Shown in pieces: positions 3,715-61,155 of a stretch of 64,000 bases of DNA. Position 1 is the stretch's first letter. Every line of letters starts with the position of its first letter. The notes below the pieces were generated by a model. It did not search any database. It was given only the letters and a program-made list of their open reading frames with translations, and had not been told where the DNA came from. Made by a program: the position numbers and the translations under genes. The stretch is from Thermodesulfobacteriota bacterium (lineage in GTDB: Bacteria; Desulfobacterota_D; UBA1144; Nemesobacterales; Nemesobacteraceae): the NCBI GenBank assembly GCA_965232155.1, contig OZ246948.1:1016434-1080433 (forward strand), in the 5' to 3' direction.

Positions 3715-4914
3715 TCAGGCCCCGCCGTTTTCAAACGTTTTCAGTATCCCGTAGGTCGTGTCGCGTTCGGCCGGGATTCTGCCTATTTCTCTGGTGAGTT
3801 TTCTGAACTCCTCGGGCGGGAAGTACTGTCCGTAACTTGCACCGGCGAAACGGGATATCTGCTCTTCCATCAGCGTTCCCCCGAAATCGTTTGCCCCGGC
3901 GGTGAGAGAGAACTGGGCGAACTCGGGTCCCTGCTTTACCCAGGAGACCTGTATGTTGTTTATCCATCCCCGAAGCATCATTCGGGAGACCGCGTACATT
4001 TTCAGCTGGTCAAGATCGGTCGGGCCCTTTCTCACCTTCCCCTTGGAGTGAATAAAGAGCCTCGTGTTCCAGGGAATGAACCGAAGCGGAACGAACTCAG
4101 TGAACCCTCCAGTCTCTTTCTGTATGTCCCTCAGGATTCCAAGGTGTATGGCCCAGTGATGGCGCTTGTCCAGGTGACCGTACATTATGGTCGAAGTGGT
4201 TCTCATTCCCTCCCTGTGGGCTTTTTTAACCACCCTTATCCATACCTCGGTCGGTATCTTCCTGGGAGCGATTACCTTTCTTACTTCTTCAACCAGAACC
4301 TCGGCCGCGGTGCCTGGGAAGGTGTTGTGACCGACATCCTTGAGTCTTCTTATGAATTCCTCTTCCTCTATGCCGAGAGTCTTGGCGCCGTAGTAGATCT
4401 CGTAGGGGGAGAAAGCGTGGGTATGCATCTCGGGCACGGCTTTTTTAACCGTCTTTATAAGTTCGATGTAGAAATTGCCGTCTATCTCGGGATGCATGCC
4501 TCCCTGCATGCATACTTCCGTCGCGCCTATCTCCCAGGCTTCAACGGTTCTCTCCGCGACTTCGTCCATCGAGAGGAAATACGCTCTCTCGTCGCCCTCG
4601 TCCGCCATAAAATTGCAGAAGCCGCAGTAGACATCGCATATGTTGGTGAAGTTTATGTTTCTGTTAACGACGTAGGTAACCACATCCCCGACATCTTCCT
4701 TTCTTATCTGATCGGCCGCGAGAGCCAGGGCGGATATCTCGTCTGTATCCTCTATGCTGAAAAGATGGATTCCGTCCTCAACCGAGATCTCTTTTCCCGA
4801 AAGCGCGTCCTCGATTATGCGGCCCGTTGTGCCGTTTATACGCGACATCACCCCGTCGACACCGAGGGGCCTTCTCTGCTCTATGGACTCTATTATTTTG
4901 TTTATGTCTTCCAT
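3715..4914 (-). CDS. cofH: Radical SAM enzyme, CofH-like (FO synthase subunit 2); MqnC/MqnE not excluded
   Basis: NINFTNICDVYCGFCNF radical-SAM motif and C-terminal TAGANDFGGT. It lies 3 nt downstream of a CofG-like gene, the same domain order as FbiC. Confidence 0.55.
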   Translation of the reverse strand: MEDINKIIESIEQRRPLGVDGVMSRINGTTGRIIEDALSGKEISVEDGIHLFSIEDTDEISALALAADQIRKEDVGDVVTYVVNRNINFTNICDVYCGFCNFMADEGDERAYFLSMDEVAERTVEAWEIGATEVCMQGGMHPEIDGNFYIELIKTVKKAVPEMHTHAFSPYEIYYGAKTLGIEEEEFIRRLKDVGHNTFPGTAAEVLVEEVRKVIAPRKIPTEVWIRVVKKAHREGMRTTSTIMYGHLDKRHHWAIHLGILRDIQKETGGFTEFVPLRFIPWNTRLFIHSKGKVRKGPTDLDQLKMYAVSRMMLRGWINNIQVSWVKQGPEFAQFSLTAGANDFGGTLMEEQISRFAGASYGQYFPPEEFRKLTREIGRIPAERDTTYGILKTFENGGA

Positions 4915-4916
4915 TT

Positions 4917-6176
4917 TCAGTTTACGGGAACGTATCCTCTCTCATCAACGCGTTCTCTTACCTTGCCGAGAACATAGGGGTCTATCCACCGCTCGTCTAT
5001 GTACTCGGGATATACGGGAAGCCTTTCCCGAAGCTCATAACCCAGTGCGCTTACCTCCCTTTCCATTCTCTCAACCTGAGGCCAAGGGGCCTCGGGGTTC
5101 ACATAGTCTATCGTGAGAGGCGACACGCCGCCCAGGTCGTTTACGCCGGCCGTCAGGTAAAAAGTGAAATTCCTGTTGTTAAGGTTAGGGGGTATCTGTA
5201 TGTTCATTTCCCCTCCGAATATTAGCCTCGAGATGGCTACGATCTTCAGCATCTCGAGAAAATCGGCGGGAGGGTACTCCTCCATCTTTATTCCTTCCTT
5301 GGGGTTGAAGTTCTGGATTATTATTTCCTGCAGGTGACCGTACCCGCGGGAGAGTTCAAGCAGGGCGTAAAGCGAGTCCACTCTCTCCTCGAACGTTTCC
5401 CCGATTCCCACCAGTATGCCGCTTGTCCAGGGGATACTGAGATCTCCTGCGTGCTCCATTGTCTCCATCCTGAGCTTCGGGACCTTGTCGGCGCAGCCGT
5501 GATGGGCGTTTCCCCGCTTAAGCAGCCTCTCGCTTATATTCTCTAGCATGAGACCCATGCTGGGGTTGCTTTTTCTGAACCCGGAGAGTTCTTCCGGTGT
5601 TGAGAGCCCGAGGTTCGTGTGGGGGAAGATTCCGTGCTCAAGCCCTGTTTTTCCCATGTCAATCAGGTACTCCGCCGTCGTTTCGTAACCGATTTCCCCG
5701 AGCGCGTCCCTGTATACCTGGTAGGCGAGTTCCGGCTTGTCGCCCGTGACGAAAAGAAGTTCCGTACATCCCGCTTCCGCTCCTTTTTTCGCCATGTCGA
5801 CGACCTCTTCCGGAGTCATGAACAGCTCTCCCTCTCCCGGCTCTATCTTGAACGTGCAGTACCCGCAGCGGTCCCTGCAGAGCTGGGTCAGGGGTACGAA
5901 AACGTTTTTGGAATAAGTTACGGTCTTTCCCTTCGAGCGGTTCCTGATGGCCGATGCGGCTAGAAGAAGAAAAGGGATTTCCCTTGGAAAAAGCTCCGCG
6001 AGGTAAAGTGCGTCTTCACGCGTAATGCTTTCTCCCTCTATCGCTTTTGATATTATTTTTTCAAGCTTTGGGGAGGGACTAAGCTCCGAGAAGTCTCCTG
6101 CGCCGAACGTTTCAAGCAGCATGGCGCTTTCGCTTATGCCGAATGTTTTTTCCCAAGTCTCAGATAAAAGGCCCAT
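4917..6176 (-). CDS. cofG: Radical SAM enzyme, CofG-like (FO synthase subunit 1)
   Basis: TYSKNVFVPLTQLCRDRCGYCTF carries the CxxxCxYC motif typical of CofG and the FbiC N-terminal half; TAGVNDLGG near the C-terminus. Confidence 0.6.
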   Translation of the reverse strand: MGLLSETWEKTFGISESAMLLETFGAGDFSELSPSPKLEKIISKAIEGESITREDALYLAELFPREIPFLLLAASAIRNRSKGKTVTYSKNVFVPLTQLCRDRCGYCTFKIEPGEGELFMTPEEVVDMAKKGAEAGCTELLFVTGDKPELAYQVYRDALGEIGYETTAEYLIDMGKTGLEHGIFPHTNLGLSTPEELSGFRKSNPSMGLMLENISERLLKRGNAHHGCADKVPKLRMETMEHAGDLSIPWTSGILVGIGETFEERVDSLYALLELSRGYGHLQEIIIQNFNPKEGIKMEEYPPADFLEMLKIVAISRLIFGGEMNIQIPPNLNNRNFTFYLTAGVNDLGGVSPLTIDYVNPEAPWPQVERMEREVSALGYELRERLPVYPEYIDERWIDPYVLGKVRERVDERGYVPVN

Positions 6177-6354
6177 ATCCAGAAACCACCCATTACGCTT
6201 CCCGCGACAGAAACAATTTCAACTCTGCCAACCCCGCCTCTAAGTATCTTATATGGAGGTTGTTTTTGTCAAGGAATGCGGCGAGGATTTATGAGGGAGC
6301 GGCGGAGCACTTAGTTCGAAAGCATGCTAGGTTCAGGGTACTGTTTTACCTGAA

Positions 6355-7356
6355 ATGGTTTCTCTTAATTCAGGCGGACTGTCGGGTACGCCGATTCCGC
6401 CGCGTCGGAAAAATATCCGCACGCGGGAGCGCACACGTCTGCGGCACTTCTCCCCAATTTTTTGCGGTCCCTGGCGCATCGCAACGGGCTTTTTCCTTCT
6501 TGCCGCCATCATACTCGGCGCGCAGCTGGGACCGGCCCGCGCACAGACCGACTCGGAATCGGCCACCTACACAGTAACATTTGAAGGTAACTGGAACACC
6601 GACAGCACGCCCGGCGGGGTTGTGGGCGGTGCCCATTTCACGACGCTGATCGGCGCCGTACACAACAGCGATGCGACCTTCTGGGCAGCGGGCGAGATGG
6701 CCACCGCTGGCGTGGAAAGGGTGGCGGAACTTGGCATCACGGGCGCGTTCGAGACAGAAATCAGCAATGCCGAAGAAGGAACTGTAAAATCCCTCGTCAA
6801 GCAAAGCGGCACCTCCTCCACGGGTACGAGGACATTTGAAGTCGAATTCAGCCGTACTCATCCCCTGCTTACGCTTCTGTCGATGATCGGTCCCAGCCCG
6901 GACTGGTTCGTAGGCGTCTCCGGTCTGTCTCTACTGGACAGATCGGATGCCTGGCTGCTCTCTCACACAGTAGAACTGTTTTCCTACGACGCCGGAACCG
7001 AGAACGGGGAAGAATTTTCGCTGAGCAATCCACCCACAAGTCCCCAGGAAACCATCATCAGTCTCAAGGGACAGGGCAAGTTCTCCGACACACCCATGGC
7101 AAGGTTGAGCTTCACTCTCAACGCAGAGCCTTTAACGGGGGAGATTGACGGACTGTCGGCGGAAGCCGGGGAGGTGGACGACGGCGGTGGAGGCTGCACT
7201 CTTGGAGGAAGTGATAGCGGCAGTGCGTTCGGGCTGTTTCTTGCAACGTTGGCGCTGCTTCTTGCGGTTTTGCTTAACAGAAATAGGCAGAAGACAAAAC
7301 GCATTGAGATGAGGCGAAGGCATTTTTCTGAGAACGGCTTAAGAGAAACGGAGTAA
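6355..7356 (+). CDS. Secreted Spondin_N-domain protein with a C-terminal Gly-rich/Cys, TM helix, basic-tail sorting signal (GlyGly-CTERM-like or MYXO-CTERM-like)
   Basis: Signal-peptide-like GFFLLAAIILGAQLGPARA. TYTVTFEGNW and PSPDWFVG are the spondin-N hallmarks. C-terminus is GGGGCTLGGSDSGSAFGLFLATLALLLAVLLNRNRQKTKR. The true start is uncertain because no ATG lies immediately before the signal peptide. Confidence 0.5.
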   Translation: MVSLNSGGLSGTPIPPRRKNIRTRERTRLRHFSPIFCGPWRIATGFFLLAAIILGAQLGPARAQTDSESATYTVTFEGNWNTDSTPGGVVGGAHFTTLIGAVHNSDATFWAAGEMATAGVERVAELGITGAFETEISNAEEGTVKSLVKQSGTSSTGTRTFEVEFSRTHPLLTLLSMIGPSPDWFVGVSGLSLLDRSDAWLLSHTVELFSYDAGTENGEEFSLSNPPTSPQETIISLKGQGKFSDTPMARLSFTLNAEPLTGEIDGLSAEAGEVDDGGGGCTLGGSDSGSAFGLFLATLALLLAVLLNRNRQKTKRIEMRRRHFSENGLRETE

Positions 7357-7503
7357 GTAATCTGGTTTTTATGGTGAACCTTCATCACGTGATGTATAAT
7401 TACACCCGATCAGTCTTTAAAATTCCCTTAGGGTTTTTCGTCCGACGGGATTTGAAAATTCGAAAAGATTCGTCAATCAGGTTTTAGAGAAACCGGTAAA
7501 TTC

Positions 7504-9453
<1,950 letters not shown>

Positions 9454-9554
9454 ACCGCGTGAATGGTCCGACCTGCCGGTTTTCAGACTCCTTAGCGAGT
9501 AGAAGAAAATAAAACTTTACAAATCCGGAATTGTATTCCGTAATTGTAAAGAAT

Positions 9555-9695
9555 ATGATAAGGCGAACCATAGAGAACAAGCTTCTTAGTCTGGCCCGTC
9601 GGTATCCCGTCATTACGATTACGGGGCCCCGTCAGTCCGGTAGAACAACGGTCTCGACAAAATGTTTTCCGGAGTACCTTAAGAGATCGGTTCTG
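9555..9695 (+). pseudogene. Remnant of an AAA ATPase (AAA_14/DUF4143 family) N-terminus
   Basis: MIRRTIENKLLSLARRYPVITITGPRQSGRTT matches the start and P-loop of DUF4143 ATPases (normally about 400 aa). The ORF degenerates and stops after about 70 aa. Confidence 0.3.
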
Positions 9696-9765
9696 ATCTA
9701 TACGGGTCGTGAAAAAACAAACCGGTACGGGCACAAATGCCTACCTTTCTGGAGAGTTTGATCAA

Positions 9766-10521
9766 ATGAGGCTTAACAGGTTTCTTTCCGAGTGCGGAAT
9801 AACATCAAGAAGAAAAGCGGATAACCTTATAAAGGCGGGACGGATAACTGTAAACGGGGAGGTCGTTCGTACTCTCGGTTCCGTGGTGGACGAGCTTGCT
9901 GACACCGTGGCGCTTGACGGAAAACCCGTGCGCAAGGAAAGAAAAAGATACGTGATGCTTAATAAGCCTCCTTTTTACCTCACTTCTCTCAAGTCCATGG
10001 AAGATGGAAAGAAAACGATAACGTCCTTTCTTGGAGACATAGAGCAGAGGGTTTATCCTGTCGGCAGGCTTGACTACGACTCTGAGGGACTTCTGATTCT
10101 CACAAACGACGGAGAACTTGCAAACAGAATACATCACCCCAGGTACAAGGTGGTAAAGACTTACCTGGCCGAGGTTTCGGGAGAGGTGCCAGATGAGCTA
10201 GAAACGGTACTTGGTGAAGGAACGGAAATTGAGAAACGTTTTACGAAGCCGGATTCAGTGAGTGTCCTTCAAGTGTCTCCAGGGCGCGCGCGGGCGAGCA
10301 TCTCATTTCACGAGGGAAGAAAGCATCTCGTGAAAAAGTACTTTGAGGCCTTCGGTTTTCGCGTTAGAAGGCTTAAGAGAATTTCGTGCGGCAACGTGCG
10401 TCTCGGCGAGCTTGAGAAGGGAGCGTGGCGCGACCTCAGCTCGGGGGAACTGAGGAACCTTCGAAAGATGACGGGACTTCTGCCCCGAGGTGAGGAGAAA
10501 ATGCCGGGAGGTGCTGTGTGA
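9766..10521 (+). CDS. RNA pseudouridine synthase, RsuA/RluB family (S4 domain plus catalytic domain)
   Basis: MRLNRFLSECGITSRRKADNLIKAGRITVNG (S4 domain) and VGRLDYDSEGLLILTNDG (catalytic Asp motif). GGAGAG ribosome-binding site 10 nt upstream of the ATG at 9766; the track ORF begins earlier, at 9709. Confidence 0.8.
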   Translation: MRLNRFLSECGITSRRKADNLIKAGRITVNGEVVRTLGSVVDELADTVALDGKPVRKERKRYVMLNKPPFYLTSLKSMEDGKKTITSFLGDIEQRVYPVGRLDYDSEGLLILTNDGELANRIHHPRYKVVKTYLAEVSGEVPDELETVLGEGTEIEKRFTKPDSVSVLQVSPGRARASISFHEGRKHLVKKYFEAFGFRVRRLKRISCGNVRLGELEKGAWRDLSSGELRNLRKMTGLLPRGEEKMPGGAV

Positions 10522-11126
10522 GCAGATTTATCACGTTCGAGGGAATAGACGGAAGCGGCAAATCAACCCAGGCGAGACTTCTGGCCGATTACCTTTCCAG
10601 TAAGGGAATCAAGGTGTTTCTCACAAAGGAACCGGGCGAGGGTAAACTCGGCGAGGCGATAAGAACCGAGATTCTCGACCGGAGGGATATCGATATTGAG
10701 CCCTACGCCGAACTCTGTCTTTTCTGCGCGGACAGGGCCCAGCACGTAAGGGAGCTCATACTGCCCAAGCTAAAAGACGGTTACACGGTTATCTGCGACA
10801 GGTACTACGATTCGACCCTTGCTTACCAGGGTTCGGGAAGGGAGCTTGATCCTGACCTGGTTTTCCGCATGGCCATGGCTTCGAGCCTTGGCGTTGAGCC
10901 CGACGTCACTTTTTTTCTTTCGATACCGGTTGAGCAGGCGCTTTTGAGGCTCAAGGACCGCGACAAAGAAAGAAACAAGATGGACGAGGAACCGTTTGAG
11001 TTCCACAGCAGGGTGGATGAGGGCTACAGACAACTGATTGAAAAAGGGATCCCAAGGATCAAGGTAATAGAAGCTTCCGGTTCACTCGAGGAAACCCAAA
11101 TGGAGATACGACGCTTTTTTGAGTGA
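10518..11126 (+). CDS. tmk: Thymidylate kinase
   Basis: MSRFITFEGIDGSGKSTQ P-loop and DRY motif. GTG start overlaps the upstream stop (GTGA). Confidence 0.9.
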   Translation: MSRFITFEGIDGSGKSTQARLLADYLSSKGIKVFLTKEPGEGKLGEAIRTEILDRRDIDIEPYAELCLFCADRAQHVRELILPKLKDGYTVICDRYYDSTLAYQGSGRELDPDLVFRMAMASSLGVEPDVTFFLSIPVEQALLRLKDRDKERNKMDEEPFEFHSRVDEGYRQLIEKGIPRIKVIEASGSLEETQMEIRRFFE

Positions 11127-11621
11127 TCACGCGTCCTGGACCGAATCTTTTGTCCTCTCGACTAACTGCTCCACTCTGGGATACATGTAGATATGCAGGA
11201 TGATTCCTATTACCGAGAAAGGAATCATATCTTGGGGATTTTTGCTCAGAAACGCGAGCACAAATCCAAGCAGCACAACGGTCTCGTTTATTCCCCAGGG
11301 AACCACGTGCGGGAGCAGTAGACGGTTTGAGAGTTCCTCAATCCTTTTTTCCGGTTCCTGACCCTGCGTTGAGAGAAATTTCTTGCGAAGAGATTTCTCA
11401 GAAAGGGTAAACCTGTATATAAGAAGGGAAATTACTCCAAGTGCCGCCCCTCCCAGAAGAAATACCGCCTTTACGTTTTCTGCGACATCCGGCGCCTCGG
11501 GCGATTTGAAAATAAAAACCACCGCGGCGTAGGCGAGCATGGCAAGCAGCAGGGCGAACCAGACTATTTTCAGAGCGCTCTGGTTCTTTGCGACTGATGA
11601 GACGCGGTTTTTGCTTTCCAT
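11127..11621 (-). CDS. Hypothetical integral membrane protein (4 predicted TM helices)
   Basis: 164-aa ORF with hydrophobic segments; no recognisable family. Confidence 0.4.
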   Translation of the reverse strand: MESKNRVSSVAKNQSALKIVWFALLLAMLAYAAVVFIFKSPEAPDVAENVKAVFLLGGAALGVISLLIYRFTLSEKSLRKKFLSTQGQEPEKRIEELSNRLLLPHVVPWGINETVVLLGFVLAFLSKNPQDMIPFSVIGIILHIYMYPRVEQLVERTKDSVQDA

Positions 11622-13388: not shown

Positions 13389-13774
13389 TAGAAGAGCAGA
13401 GAATGAAGATGATCATGGATCACTACGAAAATCCGAGAAACTTCGGTCCGCTTGAGAACCCGACGGTGACGCTTAGAGGTGGCAACCCGAATTGCGGAGA
13501 CACGCTGAATATCTATATTCGCACAGCCGATGGGGGAGTCATAGAAGATATAAGTTTTGACGGGGAAGGCTGCACGATAAGCCAGGCCGCGGCTTCCCTT
13601 CTTACGGAGTTTATAAAGGGAAAGACTGTGGAGCGGCTCAGAGAGCTCGACTCTGACTACCTCAAGGAACTTCTTGGCAAGGACATCATGGTAACTCGCC
13701 CGAAATGCAGCCGCCTCGCCCTTGAAACCCTCAAATCATGGGCAAGGGATTTCGAGAGGGGAAAAACCGCCTGA
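13385..13774 (+). CDS. sufU: SufU/IscU-type Fe-S cluster scaffold / sulfur-transfer protein (NifU N-terminal domain)
   Basis: NPNCGD, GEGCTISQAAAS and PKCSRLALE three-Cys pattern. AGGAGG ribosome-binding site; 4-bp overlap with sufE. Confidence 0.75.
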   Translation: MIEEQRMKMIMDHYENPRNFGPLENPTVTLRGGNPNCGDTLNIYIRTADGGVIEDISFDGEGCTISQAAASLLTEFIKGKTVERLRELDSDYLKELLGKDIMVTRPKCSRLALETLKSWARDFERGKTA

Positions 13775-13826
13775 TTTTTGGTATACTTCTCTTTATTACT
13801 CAACCAGATTCAAGGAGATTCAAACG

Positions 13827-15161
13827 ATGAAAAACGGCAAACTCGATAAAACGGTTCTAAGCGAAAGGATTGAAGAAGCGCTTAAATACCCGCTTTTTGA
13901 TTCCATATTCAACAGGCGCTCAAGAAGATTCGGTCTTGGAATGGAGCTTAAGGACAGCACCCTTGAGTTCAAGTCGAACTACGATCCCGTGCCTCTCACA
14001 GAGATGGAGGAAGCGCTTCTGGTGTGGGCCGGAACGGGGCTCACCGGGCTTTGCCTCGCTGACCTGCCGCCAGAGAACGGGATAGACCTTCTATGCCAGT
14101 GGACGGGAAGAACCTGGCCTTCTGCGTGCAATAACCACGGGACTGAGCTTTTTTTCACAAATGATAACGGTCTTTACCACGTGGACGTAAAGAACATGCT
14201 TCCCAAGGAACATGAGATCGATCTGTTTTTCAAGCTCTCCCGCGAGGAGAAAATCGCGAGGGTTCTGGAACTCTACAGGGAAAGCATTAACAAGCTTGAG
14301 GACGGAAGGGCCGACATGCCCGACAAGATGCCGGGACTTTTTGAGTTTAACCAGTGGAATACAAACAAGCCCGGCACCACGCTTTTTGTTCCGGTGACGG
14401 ACGTCACCGAGGAGTACCTGAATCTTCTTACCCTTTACTGCAGCCACAGCTACGGATTCACGATCATAGACGATCTTACCGGAAAGCCCGCGGGCGTTGA
14501 GAAATGGGTGGAGACAGGCAGGCTCAAGGGCGATATAAAGCTTTCTCTATTCGATCTCGAGGTAAGAATTCTTACGGGACTTAACGTTGAGCAGGCGTTT
14601 ATCACGCAGAACATGGCCCTTGCTCTCCAGCCCCTGGGGCTTGCGGGATGGGCGTTTACGGGCTTCATACCGAGGTTCGCCATGGGAGCCGCTCCGAATC
14701 TGTTCAAGGGTCTCGGATTCCGTTTCGTTCAGCCGAAAAAAGGTACGATCGATCCTCCCACCACCGTTCCCGTAGGAAAGGACGGGGTTTTTGAAGCTTA
14801 CTGTCCACCCTACTATGAGAACATGGATGATGCGATTGATCACTTCTTGGCCCATAAATGGAGAGCGTGGGAATCCGACAAGCCTTTCCCGTACACGGAA
14901 CCCGACAGGCATCTCATGAAGGCCCCGAGGCCCACGGATACCACCATAGAGATTGTAAGGGCTGTCGCTAACTATATTTATGACACTTACGGCAGATTCC
15001 CAGCGTTTGTGGATCCCATGTACATGAGGCTAGTTTTTCAGGCGATGCACATAGACGTGGATTTCTATGACCAGTATTACCCGAAGGGTTCCTATTCGGA
15101 CAGGCATCTGCAAGCTTTTCTCGAGAACAATCCGGACCAGAGAGAGCGGTTTAAAGAGTAG
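13827..15161 (+). CDS. Enlarged nitroreductase-superfamily protein (444 aa), function unknown
   Basis: N-terminal FNRRSRRFG (RRSxRxF nitroreductase signature) and C-terminal ITQNMALALQPLGLAGWAFTGF (QNxxLAxxxLGLG), with about 250 extra residues between. Ribosome-binding site AAGGAG 8 nt upstream of the ATG at 13827. Confidence 0.5.
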   Translation: MKNGKLDKTVLSERIEEALKYPLFDSIFNRRSRRFGLGMELKDSTLEFKSNYDPVPLTEMEEALLVWAGTGLTGLCLADLPPENGIDLLCQWTGRTWPSACNNHGTELFFTNDNGLYHVDVKNMLPKEHEIDLFFKLSREEKIARVLELYRESINKLEDGRADMPDKMPGLFEFNQWNTNKPGTTLFVPVTDVTEEYLNLLTLYCSHSYGFTIIDDLTGKPAGVEKWVETGRLKGDIKLSLFDLEVRILTGLNVEQAFITQNMALALQPLGLAGWAFTGFIPRFAMGAAPNLFKGLGFRFVQPKKGTIDPPTTVPVGKDGVFEAYCPPYYENMDDAIDHFLAHKWRAWESDKPFPYTEPDRHLMKAPRPTDTTIEIVRAVANYIYDTYGRFPAFVDPMYMRLVFQAMHIDVDFYDQYYPKGSYSDRHLQAFLENNPDQRERFKE

Positions 15162-15217
15162 CGCCTGCCCTGTGAGTAGAGTTTGACCCGGTTTGCGGTA
15201 GGGGGAGAGAATCAGGC

Positions 15218-16550
15218 ATGCGCGTAGCTATCATCGGAAATGGGGTAACGGGGGTTGCGGCCGCCCTGAGTATACGCAGGCTCCAGCCCGACTGGGAGAT
15301 CATCATGATCTCGGGGGAGTCCTCTTTTCACTATTCCCGCCCGGCGCTCATGTACATATTCATGGGCCACATGAGCTACAAGGACACCAAGCCTTACGAG
15401 GACAGTTTCTGGAGGAAAAACCGCATTGATTTGGTAAGGGGATGGGTTACAGAAATTGATGCCGCCGGGAAAAAGCTCATTATGCACGAAAAAGATCCCG
15501 TTTCGTTCGATAAGCTGCTTGTCGCCACGGGATCCAAGTCAAACAAGTTCGGTTGGCCCGGCCAGGGTCTTGGAGGAGTACAGGGCTTCTACAGCCTTAT
15601 GGATCTCAGGCTTCTTTACGAGAACGTAAAAGGAGCCCGAAGTCGTCGGAGGTGGCCTGATCGGGATCGAGCTTGCTGAATGCTCCATTAAAAGGAGCCC
15701 GAAGCGCCGTTATCGTCGGAGGTGGCCTGATCGGGATCGAGCTTGCTGAGATGCTCCATTCGCGCAATATCCACGTCACACTGGTGAGAGAAGAGTCCTA
15801 CTGGATAACGTCCTTCCGATTGAGGAATCACGGATGATAAACCGCGTGATTCTGGAGCAGGGGATTGATCTCAGGCTCTTAACGGAGCTAAAGGAGATAG
15901 TAGGGGACGATTCGGGGAGAGTGCGGGGAGTCGTAACCAGCAAGGAGGAATTCATAGAATGCCAGATCGTCGGTCTTACCGCGGGAGTAAGTCCCAACAT
16001 AGCTCTTGCCAAGGCAAGCGGGATAAAGACAGGGAGGGGGATTCTGGTTGACCGCAGCTTCAGGACCGATACCCCGGATGTGTTTGCCGCCGGGGACTGC
16101 GCCGAGATAATCACTGAGGGGGATGGAAGGAACCTTATTCAGCAGGTCTGGTACACCGGCAAGAACCAGGGAAAAGTGGCTGGAGAGGCGATAGCCGGCC
16201 GACACAGCGTGTATGACCCCGGAATCTGGTATAACTCGGCTAAATTCTTCGATCTTGAGTACCAGACTTACGGTAACGTGAGAAACGTTCCTGCCCAGGG
16301 GGAGGACAGTTTTTACTGGGAGCATCCCGATCACAGCCGTTCAGTAAGAATCGTTACGAAAGACGGAGCCGTCTGCGGCATAAACGTCATGGGTCTTCGC
16401 TACAGCCACAGGGTTTGCGAGAGCTGGGTGGCGGAGAAAAGGCCCCTTGACTATGTGCTCGATCATCTGGGGGATGCCAATTTCGATCCGGAATTCTATG
16501 AAGAATGTGAAGCGGAAATAATAAGGGAGATAAGGAAACAGGCCGCCTGA
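15218..16550 (+). pseudogene. NAD(P)H-dependent FAD oxidoreductase of the pyridine-nucleotide-disulfide family (ferredoxin/rubredoxin-reductase or NirB-N-like), disrupted
   Basis: N-terminus MRVAIIGNGVTGVAAA...YSRPALMY (no redox-active Cys), second Rossmann RSAVIVGGGLIGIELAEML, C-terminal GDCAEI. The reading frame is broken by an imperfect 62/71-nt tandem duplication (15628-15760) and a 1-nt deletion near 15804 (GG vs GGG). Confidence 0.6.
15628..15760 (+). repeat. Imperfect tandem duplication (62 nt plus 71 nt) inside the flavoprotein gene
   Basis: Copy 1 is aaaaggagcccgaagTcgtcgg...gctgaAtgctccatt. Copy 2 carries an extra CGCCGTTAT and an extra G. Deleting copy 1 restores ...ENVKGARSAVIVGGGLIGIELAEMLHSRNIHVTLVREESYW. 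Confidence 0.8.
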
Positions 16551-31415: not shown

Positions 31416-32666
31416 TTAGCTACCATATGGCAACCTCGTATCAATTTCACGGTTCGCAGGGACTGTGCTAATACCAGAACCCTCCCCGTGCAGTCGCGCC
31501 ATTCCCAGACGCCTTATGTTTATTGCCGCATTCGTGTCCGCATTGGACGCATAGCCGCAACTCACACACAGGAACCGTGCTTGGGTTTTTCGGTTCTCTT
31601 TATCTGTATGCCCGCACTCGGAGCATGTCTGACTCGTGTATGCGGGATTTACTTCTATTAGTCTCCCGCACTTGTACTCAAGATTTCTTCTAAGTTCTCC
31701 CAAGGCTGTATCAAGCATTGCCCTGTTAAGTCCCGCCTTCTGCTTTACGTTCTTTCCCGGATTCTCTATCGTACCCTTTGCGGAAGCCGTCATATTCTTC
31801 ACCTTCAGATCTTCCACAACTATTGTTCCGCACTTGTCCGCAATTTCCCTGGTGGTCTTGTGAATCCAGTCCTTGCGGATACTGGCTATCTTTCTGCTCA
31901 CCTTCGCAAGTTTCTTCTTCGTGTCCTTCCGCCTGTTAGACCCCTTTATCTGTCTTGCAATCCTTCGCTGATACCACTTTCGCCTTGCTTCTTTCTTCTT
32001 TAAGTCGGGCAGGAAGTAAAAGTTTCCATCCGAAGTGGCTACCTGACGTGCGTTCATGTCAACGCCCAGAATCTCACCGTCATCCGGTCTTTTCTCCACT
32101 TCCACTTCATAGAATACGAATGCCCGCCACCTGTGCCCGTCATGGCGAAGCACTACCTGCCTGGGTACGCCATCTTCCCAGGGGTTTCCTCCCCTGCGGG
32201 TCATCTTTACCCAACCGACCTTGGGGATAAGAAGCAGAGAGTATTTTTTATCAATATTTTTTATTCTGAAGTTCTCCTTGCTTGGAAGCGTGAAGCTGGG
32301 TACGTGCCTGTTTCTGCTTATGGGCTTCGGAAAACCTTTCTTGCCAGCCATCGCCTCTTTCAATGCATCCGCAAAATACTTGAGGGTATGCTTTACAGGA
32401 TTGGCGGGAAGTTCAAGCATCCACTCCGTCTCATGCCTTAGCCTGGTGAACTCCACACCGAGACTGAAATAACTGGTATGCGGTCTCTGCCCTTTGTCAT
32501 TCTTGAATGCCTGGTAGTCGGCAAGGTTCTTTTCCCTGAAATGGTTCCAGACATATCTACAGGCTCCCGCTATCTGGAACATCTTGGTTGCCTTAGCCTT
32601 AGCAGTAGGCAGAACGACAAACTCTACGGTACGTATTTGTTTAGTCATTGCAATATATCGTATCAT
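31416..32666 (-). CDS. tnpB: TnpB (IS200/IS605-family OrfB, RuvC-like RNA-guided endonuclease); alternative start at M7 (32648)
   Basis: N-terminus RTVEFVVLPTAKAKATKMFQIAGACRYVWNHF. RuvC-I GVDMNARQ, RuvC-II IVVEDLKVKNM, C-terminal NPAYTSQTCSECGH...FLCVSCGYASNADTNAAINI (Zn ribbon plus RuvC-III). All three catalytic acidic residues are present. No tnpA adjacent. Confidence 0.85.
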   Translation of the reverse strand: MIRYIAMTKQIRTVEFVVLPTAKAKATKMFQIAGACRYVWNHFREKNLADYQAFKNDKGQRPHTSYFSLGVEFTRLRHETEWMLELPANPVKHTLKYFADALKEAMAGKKGFPKPISRNRHVPSFTLPSKENFRIKNIDKKYSLLLIPKVGWVKMTRRGGNPWEDGVPRQVVLRHDGHRWRAFVFYEVEVEKRPDDGEILGVDMNARQVATSDGNFYFLPDLKKKEARRKWYQRRIARQIKGSNRRKDTKKKLAKVSRKIASIRKDWIHKTTREIADKCGTIVVEDLKVKNMTASAKGTIENPGKNVKQKAGLNRAMLDTALGELRRNLEYKCGRLIEVNPAYTSQTCSECGHTDKENRKTQARFLCVSCGYASNADTNAAINIRRLGMARLHGEGSGISTVPANREIDTRLPYGS

Positions 32667-59235: not shown

Positions 59236-61155
59236 TTGAATCCACGAATAGAAATGGATAGCCCTATATCTTCTTCTGACCGCAACGATAGCAGCAACTT
59301 CCCGCGCGAATTCTTCTGCATACCTCAATGCACCGCTTTTTTACTTTCGGGACTTTTTTCTCTTTTTGTGCTTTTTCCCTTGGCCTCGGACATTAGCGCC
59401 GAGGAGTTGGAGAAGGACGAAACGGTTTTTATCTCCGGGATCAAAATAAAGGGGTTAAAAGATATAGAACTCGACAGGATAAAGGACTCCATGATAACCC
59501 CTTTTCCCTCCTGGAGACCTTGGAGAAAACGTCCGGAGTTCAACGAGCAGTTTCTTGAGGACGATATAAAAAGAATAGAACAGGTTCTCAGGGAACATGG
59601 CTATTACGGTTCCACAGTAACCCATACCTTAGATTTCCGGGATGAAGACCGAAAAGTGGATATAGAAATAAGGGTGGACCAGGGAGATCCCGTAATAGTG
59701 GAGACTCTGAACATAGCAGTTCTTGGGAACCATCCGGACGATTACGTCTCCGATGTCGCCGAGGTGATTCTCTTGGAAGAGGGGAAACCTTTTTCCCAGA
59801 TAAGCTACCAGAAGTCAAAAGTTCTTATCACGGAGCTGTTTTCCGATAGGGGTTATCCTCTGGCGGATATAAAATCCGAGGCGGTTGTGAGTTTGAGGAG
59901 CAGGGAGGTCAATGTTGAATTCACCATTGATCCGGGTCAGGAGTATTATTTCGGCGACGTAATATTCAAGGGAAATTCCAATATTGCCACTAGACTTCTC
60001 GAGCGGGAGATAGAGTACGAGAAAGGGGACCTGTTCTCTCTCAAAGAGACTCAGAAATCACGGGCGAATATTTTTGAAACCGGCCTTTTTAATTCCGTTA
60101 TAGTGGACACTGATTACGACGAGCGGAAGTTCGAGGTTCAGACTATATACAGTGTTACCGAGAGAAAACTCGGAACGATAAGGCTTGGAGCTGGATACGC
60201 CACGGAGGACAATCTAAGGGTACGGCTATCTTGGAGCCAGAGGAACTTTTTTGACGGCGGAAGGACTCTGCAGATTACCTCCAGTTATTCATCCCTGACA
60301 CGGGGATTACTGGCCAGACTTGATCAGCCCCACTTAGCCGGCAGGAATTCCAGCCTTGCTTTTTTGCTTGACGTGAGAAGGGATGACTTCCCGGGCTATC
60401 AGGGTTTGAGTTTCGATTTTAACAGTACTTTGTCCAAGGAGTTTTTTGATTCTCTCACACTTTTCAGTTCCCTGGCCGTCTTATACGCGGATATAGACTC
60501 TCAAGTGGTAAGAACGCCGATTGAAAGTGCCCGCGACAGCGTCTTCCTTACGGTCGTTGATCTGGGAGTTGAGTATGACCTGACCGACAGCCTTATAAAT
60601 CCTACCAGCGGAATGCGGCTGTTTTTACTCATGGAGAAGCCGATTCAGAGTACTAGCTCCTCCCGCACCGATTACCTGAAATTTCTGGCCGAGTTAAGAT
60701 ACTACAAGGATGTTTCCGGGATCGTTCTGGGAAAAAGGGCGACGTTCGGAAATATCACCACACTTGGGGACACTGACTCGCTTGACGTACCGATTTTCAA
60801 GCGGTTCTTCGCCGGAGGCAGTGCAAGCATGAGGGGCTATTCATTTCAGCATCTGAGTCCGCTTAATTCGGATCGGGACCCCCTTGGGGGTAACTCCATG
60901 TTCGTTGGCAACGCTGAAGCCCGTTTCGGGCTTTTTAGTAAGCTTGGAGCGGTAATTTTCTTCGATTACGGAAATGTTTATTCAAAGAGTTTCGGTTTCA
61001 GTGCTTCCGATCTGAAGTACGCGGCCGGTGCCGGATTGAGATACCATACGATTATCGGGCCGATCAGGGCGGATTTCGGTTACCTTCTAAATCCCGAGGA
61101 CGAGGAGAGAGACGACAGGTTCAAGATCTTTATAAGCATAGGACAGGCTTTTTAG
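59236..61155 (+). CDS. Omp85-family outer membrane protein assembly factor (BamA/TamA-like) with POTRA domains
   Basis: Signal/TM segment, POTRA-like repeats, C-terminal beta-barrel ending ...[18 protein letters not shown]...[11 protein letters not shown] (Omp85 C-terminal signature). Confidence 0.8.

What the first reader, a model, noticed from the sequence alone, without database searches (positions are those of the whole stretch)
6355..7356. Secreted spondin-N domain protein with a GlyGly-CTERM-like or MYXO-CTERM-like sorting tail
The TYTVTFEGNW...PSPDWFVG core is the F-spondin N-terminal (reeler-like) fold, rare in bacteria. The C-terminus GGGGCTLGG-SDSGS-AFGLFLATLALLLAVLL-NRNRQKTKR has the glycine/cysteine motif, hydrophobic helix and basic cluster architecture of protein-sorting signals cleaved by rhombosortase or archaeosortase-like enzymes. 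The start codon is ambiguous (no ATG close to the signal peptide).
Basis: partly seen in the sequence, partly recalled or inferred. Interest (0 to 1): 0.5.

Follow-up and report, generated by a model that had tools for sequence, protein, structure and literature searches.

The report
Spondin protein with cysteine-type sorting tail
A Dadabacteria gene encodes a secreted protein with an animal-type F-spondin adhesion domain and a conserved glycine-cysteine, membrane-helix, basic-cluster tail that looks like an undescribed relative of the myxobacterial MYXO-CTERM surface-sorting signal, although the enzyme that would cut it was not found.

Summary
The ORF at 6355-7356 (+) is real, and its core is a clear Spondin_N domain (Pfam E=1.9e-39; mindin and F-spondin are the best matches among solved structures). 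Two first-reader points are wrong. The domain is common in bacteria, and it is a C2-like fold, not reeler-like.

The start-codon doubt is resolved. An in-frame ATG (GTG in one genome) sits at the same position in all 15 orthologues scored.

The organism is Candidatus Dadabacteria. The gene occupies a hypervariable slot between conserved cofG and acs.

The tail is GGGGC, a Gly/Ser spacer, a 17-residue helix and a basic cluster. It is a conserved module. A tail profile found 28 cluster representatives among 1.84 billion proteins, all matched at or within about 70 residues of the C-terminus. An unrelated metzincin-like family carries the same G-C-A-(L/I/V) tail in 24 of 24 members. One chromosome holds at least three such genes.

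Only Cys-type models (MYXO-CTERM, JDVT-CTERM) recur as weak matches. This tail scores 14-16 bits against a cutoff of 20. GlyGly-CTERM never matches.

No sorting enzyme lies in the roughly 630 kb I could read, and whole genomes could not be fetched. The best reading is a lineage-specific, MYXO-CTERM-like surface-sorting signal. An uncleaved membrane anchor remains a live rival.

The parts
6177..6354 (.). Intergenic region between divergently transcribed cofG (4917-6176, minus strand) and the spondin gene. It has blocks conserved in orthologous loci, including the sequence just upstream of the ATG.
   Evidence: Three-way DNA alignment with L001 and L002. One sigma-70-like site on the minus strand at 6272-6243, pointing towards cofG. 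No Rfam match.
6355..7356 (+). Whole coding sequence: 333 codons plus a TAA stop.
   Evidence: ORF list. Identical protein P0001 in public data, and orthologues at 57-80% identity.
6355..6357 (+). Start codon ATG.
   Evidence: It is the only ATG/GTG/TTG between the upstream stop and the hydrophobic core. An in-frame start sits 67-71 codons upstream of the YTVTF motif in all 15 syntenic orthologues scored, and it is GTG in L003. Seven of the 15 lack any closer Met. An in-frame deletion in L002 keeps this ATG in phase.
6355..6543 (+). Export signal, residues 1-63. It has a long Arg-rich n-region (1-39), a hydrophobic core (about 42-57, IATGFFLLAAIILGAQ) and an A-R-A motif before Gln64.
   Evidence: The sequence itself. 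AlphaFold models helix 40-55 with residues 1-37 disordered. The n-region motif PPRR.DIR..R.R..L..FSRIF is conserved as protein in orthologues. The cleavage site is inferred from the -3/-1 Ala rule and was not computed with SignalP. There is no twin-arginine consensus next to the hydrophobic core.
6562..7071 (+). Spondin_N (FS) domain, residues 70-239. The last beta-strand of the fold runs to about residue 255 (nt 7119).
   Evidence: Pfam PF06468 E=1.9e-39. NF038123 covers residues 70-250. PDB sequence hits 3D34 and 3Q13. Model strands run to 249-255 and Foldseek hits the same entries.
7120..7182 (+). Acidic, low-confidence linker, residues 256-276 (AEPLTGEIDGLSAEAGEVDD).
   Evidence: Block-mean pLDDT 43-55 across residues 261-290. 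In most relatives this position holds one or two inserted Cache-like modules.
7183..7209 (+). Signature motif GGGGCTLGG, residues 277-285. The invariant Cys281 is encoded at 7195-7197.
   Evidence: G-G-G-G-C is invariant in 13 of 13 orthologue tails. G-C is invariant across 22 full-length proteins and across 23 tails from at least 4 passenger families.
7210..7224 (+). Gly/Ser spacer SDSGS, residues 286-290.
   Evidence: Its composition is kept but its sequence varies among orthologues (SDSGS, SGSGG, SDKGG, SGSDG and others). It is the region that weakly matches VPDSG-CTERM, 14-17 bits against a cutoff of 22.
7225..7275 (+). Hydrophobic transmembrane helix AFGLFLATLALLLAVLL, residues 291-307, with no charged residue and no Pro.
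   Evidence: Mean Kyte-Doolittle hydropathy 2.72 over 17 residues. A helix from residue 291 in the model. The conserved start is [AV][FLV][NG]L[FL]L, and one Leu is nearly invariant across families.
7276..7353 (+). Basic cytoplasmic end NRNRQKTKRIEMRRRH FSENGLRETE, residues 308-333.
   Evidence: 9 Arg/Lys in the first 16 residues. The long form recurs in relatives (L016/P0028 ...RRQARRIELRR...NRLRETE, and P0014, P0022, P0121, P0142). Others have a short form, KRHxAEDKTH.

Best explanation
**What it is.** This is a surface protein of a Candidatus Dadabacteria bacterium, which is a diderm: a BamA/TamA-type Omp85 gene lies in the same window.

**Shown.** The protein consists of:
- a Sec-type signal peptide with an unusually long Arg-rich n-region;
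- one F-spondin (FS, C2-like) domain;
- a short acidic linker;
- a tripartite C-terminal tail of oligo-Gly plus an invariant Cys, a 5-residue Gly/Ser spacer here (roughly 5-14 residues in relatives), a transmembrane helix and a basic cluster.

The tail is a mobile, lineage-wide module. It ends otherwise unrelated secreted proteins in the same genomes. Among curated models only the Cys-type sorting signals (MYXO-CTERM, JDVT-CTERM) recur as weak matches.

**Inferred mechanism**, by analogy with the MYXO-CTERM model of Guo, Haft and Wall (PMC11980579):
1. The protein is exported by Sec and held in the inner membrane by the tail helix, with the basic end in the cytoplasm.
2. Cys281 is modified, probably with a lipid.
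3. An intramembrane protease, most likely a CPBP/Rce1-type 'myxosortase' relative, cuts just after the Cys and removes the helix.
4. The lipid-anchored protein is moved to the cell surface.
5. There the FS domain would bind a host or matrix ligand.

The gene sits in a fast-evolving slot. This fits a host- or phage-exposed surface molecule.
For: **Domain identity.**

**Organism.** Names of relatives and of 17 genome loci are Candidatus Dadabacteria or Thermodesulfobacteriota bacterium. NCBI places the class Dadabacteria inside the phylum Thermodesulfobacteriota. An Omp85-family (BamA/TamA-type) match lies at 59236-61155, 271 bits, just under TIGR03303's 297-bit equivalog cutoff.

**Tail conservation.**
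- GGGGC and parts of the helix are invariant in 13 orthologues.
- The tail profile finds 28 representatives in 1.84e9 proteins, all at or near the C-terminus.
- Their passenger domains include fn3, Spond_N, cadherin, Calx-beta, LRR, SWM_repeat, He_PIG and F5/8-C.
- The only invariant columns in the 22-protein alignment are G, C and one Leu.

**An unrelated family carries the same tail.**
- The family is metzincin-like, with the motif HE[IL]IHGLGF.
- 24 of 24 fetched members have G-C-[ATM]-[LIV]. In 23 of them the Cys lies 39-56 residues from the end; in the other it is 76.
- A polar spacer, a helix and a mostly basic end follow.
- A joint alignment of 23 tails keeps G-C invariant.

**Several tail genes per genome.**
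- Chromosome OZ245933.1 has L003 (the cofG-acs slot).
- The same chromosome has two more in L013, at 7430-10966 and 13620-15236.
- L024 also has two.

**Model matches.**
- MYXO-CTERM is matched by 11 of 13 tails, best E=1.2e-4.
- An orthologue tail scores 21.4 bits against a cutoff of 20, and others score 19.5.
- Metzincin-type tails weakly match JDVT-CTERM, 7 of 23.

**Mechanism precedent.** The MYXO-CTERM working model and the MrtX experiments (PMC11980579), and the Cys-type signal family (bioRxiv 10.1101/2023.06.07.544157).

**Fast evolution of the slot.**
- Flanking CofH, CofG and Acs are 92-98% identical across 16 loci.
- The FS part is 57-80% identical.
- The ORF at this position runs from 322 to 1440 residues.
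Against: - No cognate protease was found. There is no CPBP, rhomboid or exosortase gene in the window. None is near the tail genes in 27 related loci either, judged by Pfam tables for the 10 loci from the look-up of encoding contigs and by my own TM and motif scans for the rest. That is about 630 kb in all.
- This protein's tail is below every curated cutoff.
- Haft's curated MYXO-CTERM is limited to Myxococcota and Bradymonadales and often has a second Cys (GCGC). That second Cys is absent here.
- Most tail proteins also share Cache-like modules, so part of the tail's spread could reflect common descent of one modular family. The window protein and the metzincin-like family are the cases without those modules.
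- No cleavage, lipidation or surface location has been shown for any member.
Confidence: 0.55

Rival explanations
1. The tail is a plain stop-transfer membrane anchor. The protein stays as an uncleaved, single-pass inner-membrane protein with its FS domain in the periplasm. The conserved Gly-Cys is a hinge or a disulfide or other structural feature, not a processing site.
For: - No sorting enzyme was found in any sequence I could read.
- Curated sorting-signal models are sub-threshold on this protein.
- Most family members carry Cache-type domains, which are typical periplasmic modules of inner-membrane proteins.
- The helix and basic end alone would suffice for anchoring.
Against: - A simple anchor does not need an invariant G-C at a fixed distance outside the helix. 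That G-C is kept across unrelated passenger families while everything else varies.
- The passengers are adhesion-type domains (FS, cadherin, fn3, LRR, Calx-beta) and a metzincin-like protease. These make little sense trapped in the periplasm of a diderm.
- The recurring weak model matches are mainly to sorting signals. The Cys-type ones are the ones seen in both tail families.
Confidence: 0.27
2. The tail is processed by a different class of sorting enzyme at the Gly/Ser stretch that abuts the helix. That enzyme would be a rhombosortase (GlyGly-CTERM-like, cutting near SGSGG|AF) or an exosortase (VPDSG/PEP-CTERM-like). The upstream Cys would be incidental.
For: - The segment just before the helix is Gly/Ser-rich (SDSGS, SGSGG).
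- VPDSG-CTERM gives weak hits on that segment in 5 of 13 tails, 14-17 bits against a cutoff of 22.
- cyano_PEP gives one weak hit.
Against: - GlyGly-CTERM never matches at E<=10.
- The Gly/Ser spacer is variable in sequence among orthologues. In the metzincin-like family a charged, polar spacer replaces it, while G-C stays invariant.
- No rhomboid or exosortase gene was seen.
Confidence: 0.1
3. The upstream ATG is not used, and the protein lacks a working signal peptide. The product would be cytoplasmic or a pseudogene, and the tail would have no function.
For: - There is no recognisable Shine-Dalgarno sequence before 6355.
- The n-region is unusually long, about 40 residues.
Against: - The start position is conserved in-frame in all 15 orthologues scored, with an ATG-to-GTG change in one. 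The n-region is conserved as protein.
- Indels in the n-region keep the reading frame.
- The reading frame is intact and the domain is under clear purifying selection: 51 invariant columns in 40 sequences.
- The neighbouring acs gene also lacks an obvious Shine-Dalgarno sequence.
Confidence: 0.03

Closest known systems
MYXO-CTERM sorting domain (TIGR03901) with myxosortase MrtX/MrtC/MrtP (CPBP/Rce1-type intramembrane proteases) of Myxococcota and Bradymonadales
   Same: - Tripartite tail at the extreme C-terminus: a Gly-rich motif with an invariant Cys, a helix free of charge and Pro, and a basic cluster.
- Found on several unrelated secreted proteins per genome, many of them adhesin-like.
- It is the best-matching curated model, scoring up to 21.4 bits on orthologue tails.
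- The host lineage is a former 'deltaproteobacterial' phylum.
   Different: - It has a single Cys (GGGGC), not the frequent GCGC.
- A Gly/Ser or polar spacer of roughly 5-14 residues separates the Cys from the helix.
- This protein scores below the cutoff.
- The lineage (Dadabacteria) is outside the curated range.
- A handful of clients per genome were seen, rather than dozens.
- No myxosortase has been identified.
JDVT-CTERM (NF033191) with MrtJ
   Same: - A single invariant Cys and few client proteins per genome.
- Weak matches to 7 of 23 tails.
   Different: - The near-invariant Asp-Pro nine residues after the Cys is absent.
- No protease gene lies next to any of the tail genes examined, whereas MrtJ is adjacent to its client in 16 of 17 cases.
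GlyGly-CTERM (TIGR03501) with rhombosortase
   Same: - Gly-rich stretch before a C-terminal helix and basic cluster.
- Diderm host.
- Surface display proposed to go through a type II secretion system.
   Different: - The model never matches.
- The conserved feature here is Cys, not the Gly-Gly next to the helix.
- No rhomboid gene was seen.
F-spondin / mindin FS domain (Pfam Spond_N; PDB 3Q13, 3D34)
   Same: Same domain family by sequence (E about 1e-25) and by predicted fold (TM-score 0.60-0.69 on the target).
   Different: - This is a bacterial, single-domain protein with no reeler domain and no thrombospondin repeats.
- Its ligand is unknown.
Bacterial Spondin_N proteins with other sorting tails, such as Bacteroidota proteins ending in a T9SS C-terminal domain (PF18962)
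   Same: Same passenger domain at 56-65% identity, fused to the secretion or sorting tag typical of the lineage.
   Different: The tag here is the Dadabacteria Gly-Cys helix tail rather than a T9SS beta-sandwich domain.

Membership tests
Spondin_N / FS domain (PF06468, NF038123) | Profile match above the curated cutoff | tested here: met
   136.3 bits against 24. 98.9 bits against 40.
Spondin_N / FS domain (PF06468, NF038123) | Fold of the solved FS domains (C2-domain variant) | tested here: met
   phmmer hits 3D34 at 8e-26 and 3Q13 at 4e-24. Foldseek E is 1.6e-14 to 5.6e-13 with target TM-score 0.60-0.69.
MYXO-CTERM (TIGR03901) | Profile score at or above the 20-bit cutoff | tested here: not met
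   The window protein scores 7 bits as a whole, and its tail alone scores 14.2-15.8 bits. Orthologue tails score 13.7-21.4 bits, and only one passes.
MYXO-CTERM (TIGR03901) | Close to the C-terminus, with an invariant Cys in the signature motif | tested here: met
   Cys281 lies 52 residues from the end. The Cys is invariant in every alignment made.
MYXO-CTERM (TIGR03901) | Transmembrane helix without charged or Pro residues, then an Arg-rich cluster | tested here: met
   AFGLFLATLALLLAVLL followed by NRNRQKTKRIEMRRRH. A few relatives do have a Pro in the helix.
MYXO-CTERM (TIGR03901) | Carried by multiple otherwise unrelated proteins in one genome | tested here: met
   Three tail genes lie on OZ245933.1 (L003 and two in L013), and two lie in L024. 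The passengers are unrelated: FS/Cache type and metzincin-like. The count seen is far below the dozens typical of Myxococcus.
MYXO-CTERM (TIGR03901) | Cognate myxosortase (NF040914 core, CPBP family) in the same genome | not testable with these tools
   Whole genomes could not be fetched. None was found in about 630 kb of held sequence.
MYXO-CTERM (TIGR03901) | Lineage is Myxococcota or Bradymonadales, as curated by Haft | tested here: not met
   The organism is Candidatus Dadabacteria, phylum Thermodesulfobacteriota. The curated range is given.
GlyGly-CTERM (TIGR03501) / rhombosortase | Profile match | tested here: not met
   No hit at E<=10 for the whole protein or for 40 or more isolated tails.
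GlyGly-CTERM (TIGR03501) / rhombosortase | Rhombosortase gene in the genome | not testable with these tools
   No rhomboid-like multi-pass ORF in the window or loci. The rest of the genome is not available.
JDVT-CTERM (NF033191) / MrtJ | Profile match above 27 bits and a near-invariant Asp-Pro nine residues after the Cys | tested here: not met
   Best score is about 6-9 bits on spondin-type tails, and the best E is 0.015 to 0.049 overall. There is no DP motif in the alignments.
JDVT-CTERM (NF033191) / MrtJ | CPBP protease gene adjacent to the client gene | tested here: not met
   No CPBP (PF02517) gene appears in the Pfam tables of the 10 loci that came with gene tables. For the 17 genome loci, only my own TM and motif scans found none.
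Twin-arginine (Tat) signal | S/T-R-R-x-F-L-K next to the hydrophobic core | tested here: not met
   The PPRRKNIR stretch lies 25 residues before the core, with many charges in between (read from the sequence). The whole-protein NCBIfam scan listed only two families, neither a Tat-signal model.

The most novel reading that the evidence does not exclude
Dadabacteria have their own, undescribed Cys-type C-terminal sorting system. Its signal is G-G-C-A-(L/I/V)-(G/A), a spacer, a helix starting [AV][FL][NG]L[FL]L and a basic end, and it would have a dedicated intramembrane protease.

The system would lipid-anchor on the cell surface a small set of fast-evolving, domain-shuffled proteins. These carry eukaryote-like adhesion domains (FS, cadherin, fn3, LRR, Calx-beta) and metzincin-like proteases. 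One client sits inside an F-type conjugation gene cluster.

That would explain how these symbionts present host-like domains to an animal host, presumably a sponge.
Probability: 0.45. Interest if true: 0.6.

Novelty: new variant of a known kind. Interest (0 to 1): 0.45.

Why it matters
C-terminal sorting signals decide which proteins a bacterium displays on its surface. The Cys-type class was linked to its protease only recently: predicted in 2023 and shown for MrtX in 2025. It is curated for very few lineages.

A Dadabacteria version would extend that class to an uncultured lineage that is common in sponges (22 MAGs in PMC8163846). The same study reports that cadherin and fibronectin-III proteins are enriched in sponge symbionts, without a known route to the surface.

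The tail gives a simple sequence handle for listing the surface repertoire of these bacteria. It also allows phylogenetic profiling to find the cognate enzyme. The cofG-acs slot offers a natural series of domain-shuffled variants for studying host-facing diversification.

If the tail is only an anchor, the finding is an ordinary lineage-specific membrane protein family.

Tried and rejected
**Searches that failed or could not answer the question**
1. The word-indexed search with the 47-aa tail profile returned only 6 short fragments, because low-complexity words swamped the candidate list. The exhaustive representative search replaced it.
2. The genome-collection scan with the tail alone found 257 pattern matches to [DG]GGGGC[AT][LVI]GG, but tblastn confirmed none because the query is too short and too simple. 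I repeated it with Cache-plus-tail sequences. That returned 17 loci, 14 of which are the same cofG-acs slot, so it says little about the number of clients per genome.
3. Looking up the window protein by exact sequence found nothing on record, so the window's own genome could not be extended.

**The hunt for the sorting enzyme**
4. I used several approaches:
   - NCBIfam on 10 membrane or envelope ORFs of the window;
   - a regex for the CPBP motifs EExxxR...FxxxH...HxxxN/D, plus hydropathy scans of the window and all loci;
   - Pfam on neighbours of paralogue loci;
   - Pfam tables from eight successful context look-ups.

   Nothing was found.
5. The conserved 164-aa four-helix ORF at 11127-11621 (minus strand) has an EELSNR stretch. 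It lacks the other CPBP motifs and has no family match, so I rejected it as a candidate.

**Readings considered and rejected**
6. Tat signal: no consensus next to the hydrophobic core.
7. N-terminal lipoprotein signal: no lipobox Cys after the hydrophobic core.
8. Regulatory RNA or terminator around the gene: no Rfam match, and only weak terminator-like sites inside coding sequence.
9. GVDTG-CTERM (NF058571): I considered it because many tails begin GEVDTDGGGGC. It scores only 11-12 bits against a cutoff of 29.
Full report
**The gene and its domain**

The window has a 333-codon ORF at 6355-7356 on the plus strand. An identical protein exists in public data on a 1.51 Mb contig (P0001).

Residues 70-239 match Pfam Spond_N at E=1.9e-39. 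They also match the NCBI prokaryotic model NF038123 at 98.9 bits.

By sequence, the only solved relatives are the FS domains of mindin (3D34, E=8e-26) and F-spondin (3Q13, E=4e-24).

I built an AlphaFold model from 40 homologues. It has block-mean pLDDT mostly 82-97 over about residues 91-210. By Foldseek it finds the same two entries (E about 1e-14, target TM-score 0.60-0.69), followed by C2 domains.

So the domain call is right, but two details in the finding are not:
- The FS domain is a C2-domain variant, as the 3Q13 entry title states. It is not the reeler domain.
- It is not rare in bacteria. There were 1128 hits below 1e-5 among only 8000 scored candidates, from Bacteroidota (often with a T9SS tail), Acidobacteriota, Gemmatimonadota, Chloroflexota and others.

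**Organism and neighbourhood**

The window encodes primase, a sigma factor, RseP, a BamA/TamA-type barrel, RNase Y and similar genes. It is therefore a diderm bacterium.

Named relatives, and all 17 loci recovered from species-representative genomes, are Candidatus Dadabacteria or 'Thermodesulfobacteriota bacterium' MAGs. Several of these are complete 1.5-2.3 Mb chromosomes. NCBI places the class Dadabacteria in that phylum.

Sixteen of the first 19 fetched loci are the same syntenic slot: cofH-cofG, then this gene on the other strand, then acs, a pseudouridine synthase and tmk.
- The flanking proteins are 92-98% identical to the window's.
- The FS part is only 57-80% identical.
- The ORF at this position runs from 322 to 1440 residues, because Cache-like, cadherin and fn3 modules come and go.

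The window protein is a short form in which the FS domain is joined directly to the tail.

**Start codon**

ATG 6355 is the only ATG, GTG or TTG in frame between the upstream stop and the hydrophobic core.

In all 15 syntenic orthologues scored, an in-frame start sits 67-71 codons before the YTVTF motif. It is GTG in L003. Seven of the 15, including the window, have no closer Met.

The n-region is conserved as protein (PEM.xLKS...PPRR.DIR..R.R..L..FSRIF). An 18-codon deletion in L002 keeps the frame.

The signal is therefore a long Arg-rich n-region, a hydrophobic core modelled as helix 40-55, and A-R-A before Gln64. The cleavage site is my inference from the -3/-1 rule. I could not run SignalP.

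**The tail is a module, not a one-off**

Thirteen orthologue tails keep G-G-G-G-C, G, S and several helix positions invariant.

I ran a profile of these tails exhaustively against 1.84 billion representatives. It gave 28 hits below 1e-3, every one at or within about 70 residues of the C-terminus of its protein.

Pfam on 22 such proteins shows varied passenger domains: fn3 (8), Spond_N (6), cadherin (5), Calx-beta (4), LRR, SWM_repeat, He_PIG and F5/8-C. In their 2112-column alignment the only invariant columns are the G and C of the motif and one Leu of the helix.

Most of these proteins share one or two Cache-like modules before the tail, so on their own they could be one modular family. I therefore looked for unrelated carriers. 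Scanning the fetched loci for C-terminal helix-plus-basic ends found three more proteins with G-C before the helix.

One of them is a secreted protein with a metzincin-type HELIHGLGFH motif and no Pfam match. It has about 195 homologues. All 24 Dadabacteria-type members that I fetched (of 28; the other four match only a repeat region, two being named Kofleriaceae) carry the following:
- G-C-[ATM]-[LIV], with the Cys 39-56 residues from the end in 23 members and 76 in one;
- an 11-14 residue polar spacer;
- a helix beginning [AV][LFV][NG]L[FL]L;
- a basic end.

A joint alignment of 23 tails from at least four passenger types keeps G-C invariant.

One chromosome, OZ245933.1, holds at least three tail genes: L003 and two in L013. 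L024 holds two.

**Comparison with curated signals**
- On the whole protein, NCBIfam reports only MYXO-CTERM, at 7 bits against a cutoff of 20.
- On isolated tails, MYXO-CTERM matches 11 of 13. The best E is 1.2e-4. The window tail scores 14.2-15.8 bits, orthologues score up to 19.5, and one scores 21.4.
- JDVT-CTERM, the other Cys-type bacterial signal, weakly matches 5 of 13 spondin-type tails and 7 of 23 mixed tails.
- VPDSG-CTERM gives 14-17 bits (cutoff 22) on the variable Gly/Ser spacer. GVDTG-CTERM gives 11-12 bits (cutoff 29).
- GlyGly-CTERM never appears.

Haft restricts curated MYXO-CTERM to Myxococcota and Bradymonadales, notes the frequent GCGC, and stresses that lineage-specific models are needed. 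Here there is a single Cys, a longer spacer and a different lineage. So this is a relative of that class, not a member by the current definition.

**Mechanism**

For MYXO-CTERM, Guo, Haft and Wall showed that the CPBP-type protease MrtX cleaves the tail, that cleavage needs the conserved cysteines, and that it also works in E. coli. They propose the sequence Sec export, helix anchoring, Cys lipidation, cleavage after the Cys, and then type II secretion to the surface.

I adopt that scheme by analogy. What is shown here is the architecture, its conservation and its spread over unrelated passengers. What is inferred is lipidation, cleavage, the enzyme class and surface display.

**The missing partner**

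I found no CPBP, rhomboid or exosortase gene in any of the following:
- the window;
- the 19 first loci;
- eight further loci around metzincin-type and LRR-type clients.

For a housekeeping sorter with several clients, adjacency is not expected. This absence is therefore weak evidence.

**Rivals**
- An uncleaved inner-membrane anchor is the main alternative. It explains the helix and the basic end. It does not explain an invariant G-C outside the membrane across unrelated families, nor adhesion domains confined to a periplasm.
- Processing at the Gly/Ser stretch by a rhombosortase or exosortase is less likely, because that stretch is not conserved.

**Context**

Dadabacteria are regular sponge symbionts, and cadherin and fn3 proteins are enriched in sponge-associated MAGs as presumed attachment factors (PMC8163846). 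One related locus is from a MAG named RHO1_bin_23. I could not verify the source of the window itself, so the host link is an inference.

**Verdict**

Noticed in passing
window 6355-7356 and the same slot in L001-L012, L014, L016-L018: The slot between cofG and acs holds a hypervariable gene. The flanking proteins are 92-98% identical across genomes, but the encoded protein is only 57-80% identical in its FS domain. The ORF ranges from 322 to 1440 residues through gain and loss of Cache-like, cadherin and fn3 modules.
   Followed up: partly
P0003-P0009, P0130-P0148; L019 9929-10993; L008 17745-19019: Most tail-bearing proteins have one or two conserved modules of about 130 residues just before the tail (CAVSGVTDD...RGGVYFHA... 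and ...DVYVYIMDETGRVIFDG...). More distant relatives match sCache_2 and dCache_2 (E down to 1.7e-20). These are Cache domains with no attached signalling domain, which is unusual.
   Followed up: partly
L013 13620-15236; L024 9983-11635; P0157-P0265: A Dadabacteria family of secreted proteins has a metzincin-type HE[IL]IHGLGF motif and no Pfam match. Longer paralogues add Calx-beta repeats. All carry the Gly-Cys helix tail.
   Followed up: partly
L020 10001-12613; L025 and L026 10001-12430: The Calx-beta paralogue of that family sits inside a chromosomal F-type conjugation (T4SS) gene cluster. It lies between TraC/TrbI/signal-peptidase-like genes and TraU-TrbC-TraN-TraF-TraH-TraG. This arrangement was seen in loci from two distinct complete Dadabacteria chromosomes, plus a third contig that carries the same protein as one of them.
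   Followed up: no
L019 8511-9833 and 11310-12608: Two proteins with scavenger-receptor cysteine-rich (SRCR) domains, another animal-type domain, flank a Cache-domain lipoprotein in a Dadabacteria chromosome.
   Followed up: no
L015 8252-10990 and L027 10001-12610: A second variable slot lies between a peptide-release-factor gene plus NAD kinase and an aminotransferase plus DUF2461. It holds a tail protein with different passengers in different genomes, LRR repeats in one of them.
   Followed up: no
window 6355-6471: The signal peptide has a roughly 40-residue Arg-rich n-region with a motif conserved across orthologues (PPRR.DIR..R.R..L..FSRIF). It is far longer than usual, and its purpose is unknown.
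   Followed up: partly
window 11127-11621 (minus strand): A 164-residue ORF with four predicted membrane helices has no NCBIfam match, and its L001 counterpart has no Pfam hit on record. A similar-sized four-helix ORF follows tmk on the minus strand in the syntenic loci.
   Followed up: partly
window 31416-32666 (minus strand): A 416-residue ORF ends ...NADTNAAINIRRLG..., which from memory resembles TnpB/IS605-type transposon proteins. I did not check it against any library.
   Followed up: no
window 3715-6176 (minus strand): Separate cofH and cofG genes, the two halves of the synthase for the deazaflavin core of F420, lie next to the spondin gene. They are very highly conserved across these genomes.
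   Followed up: no
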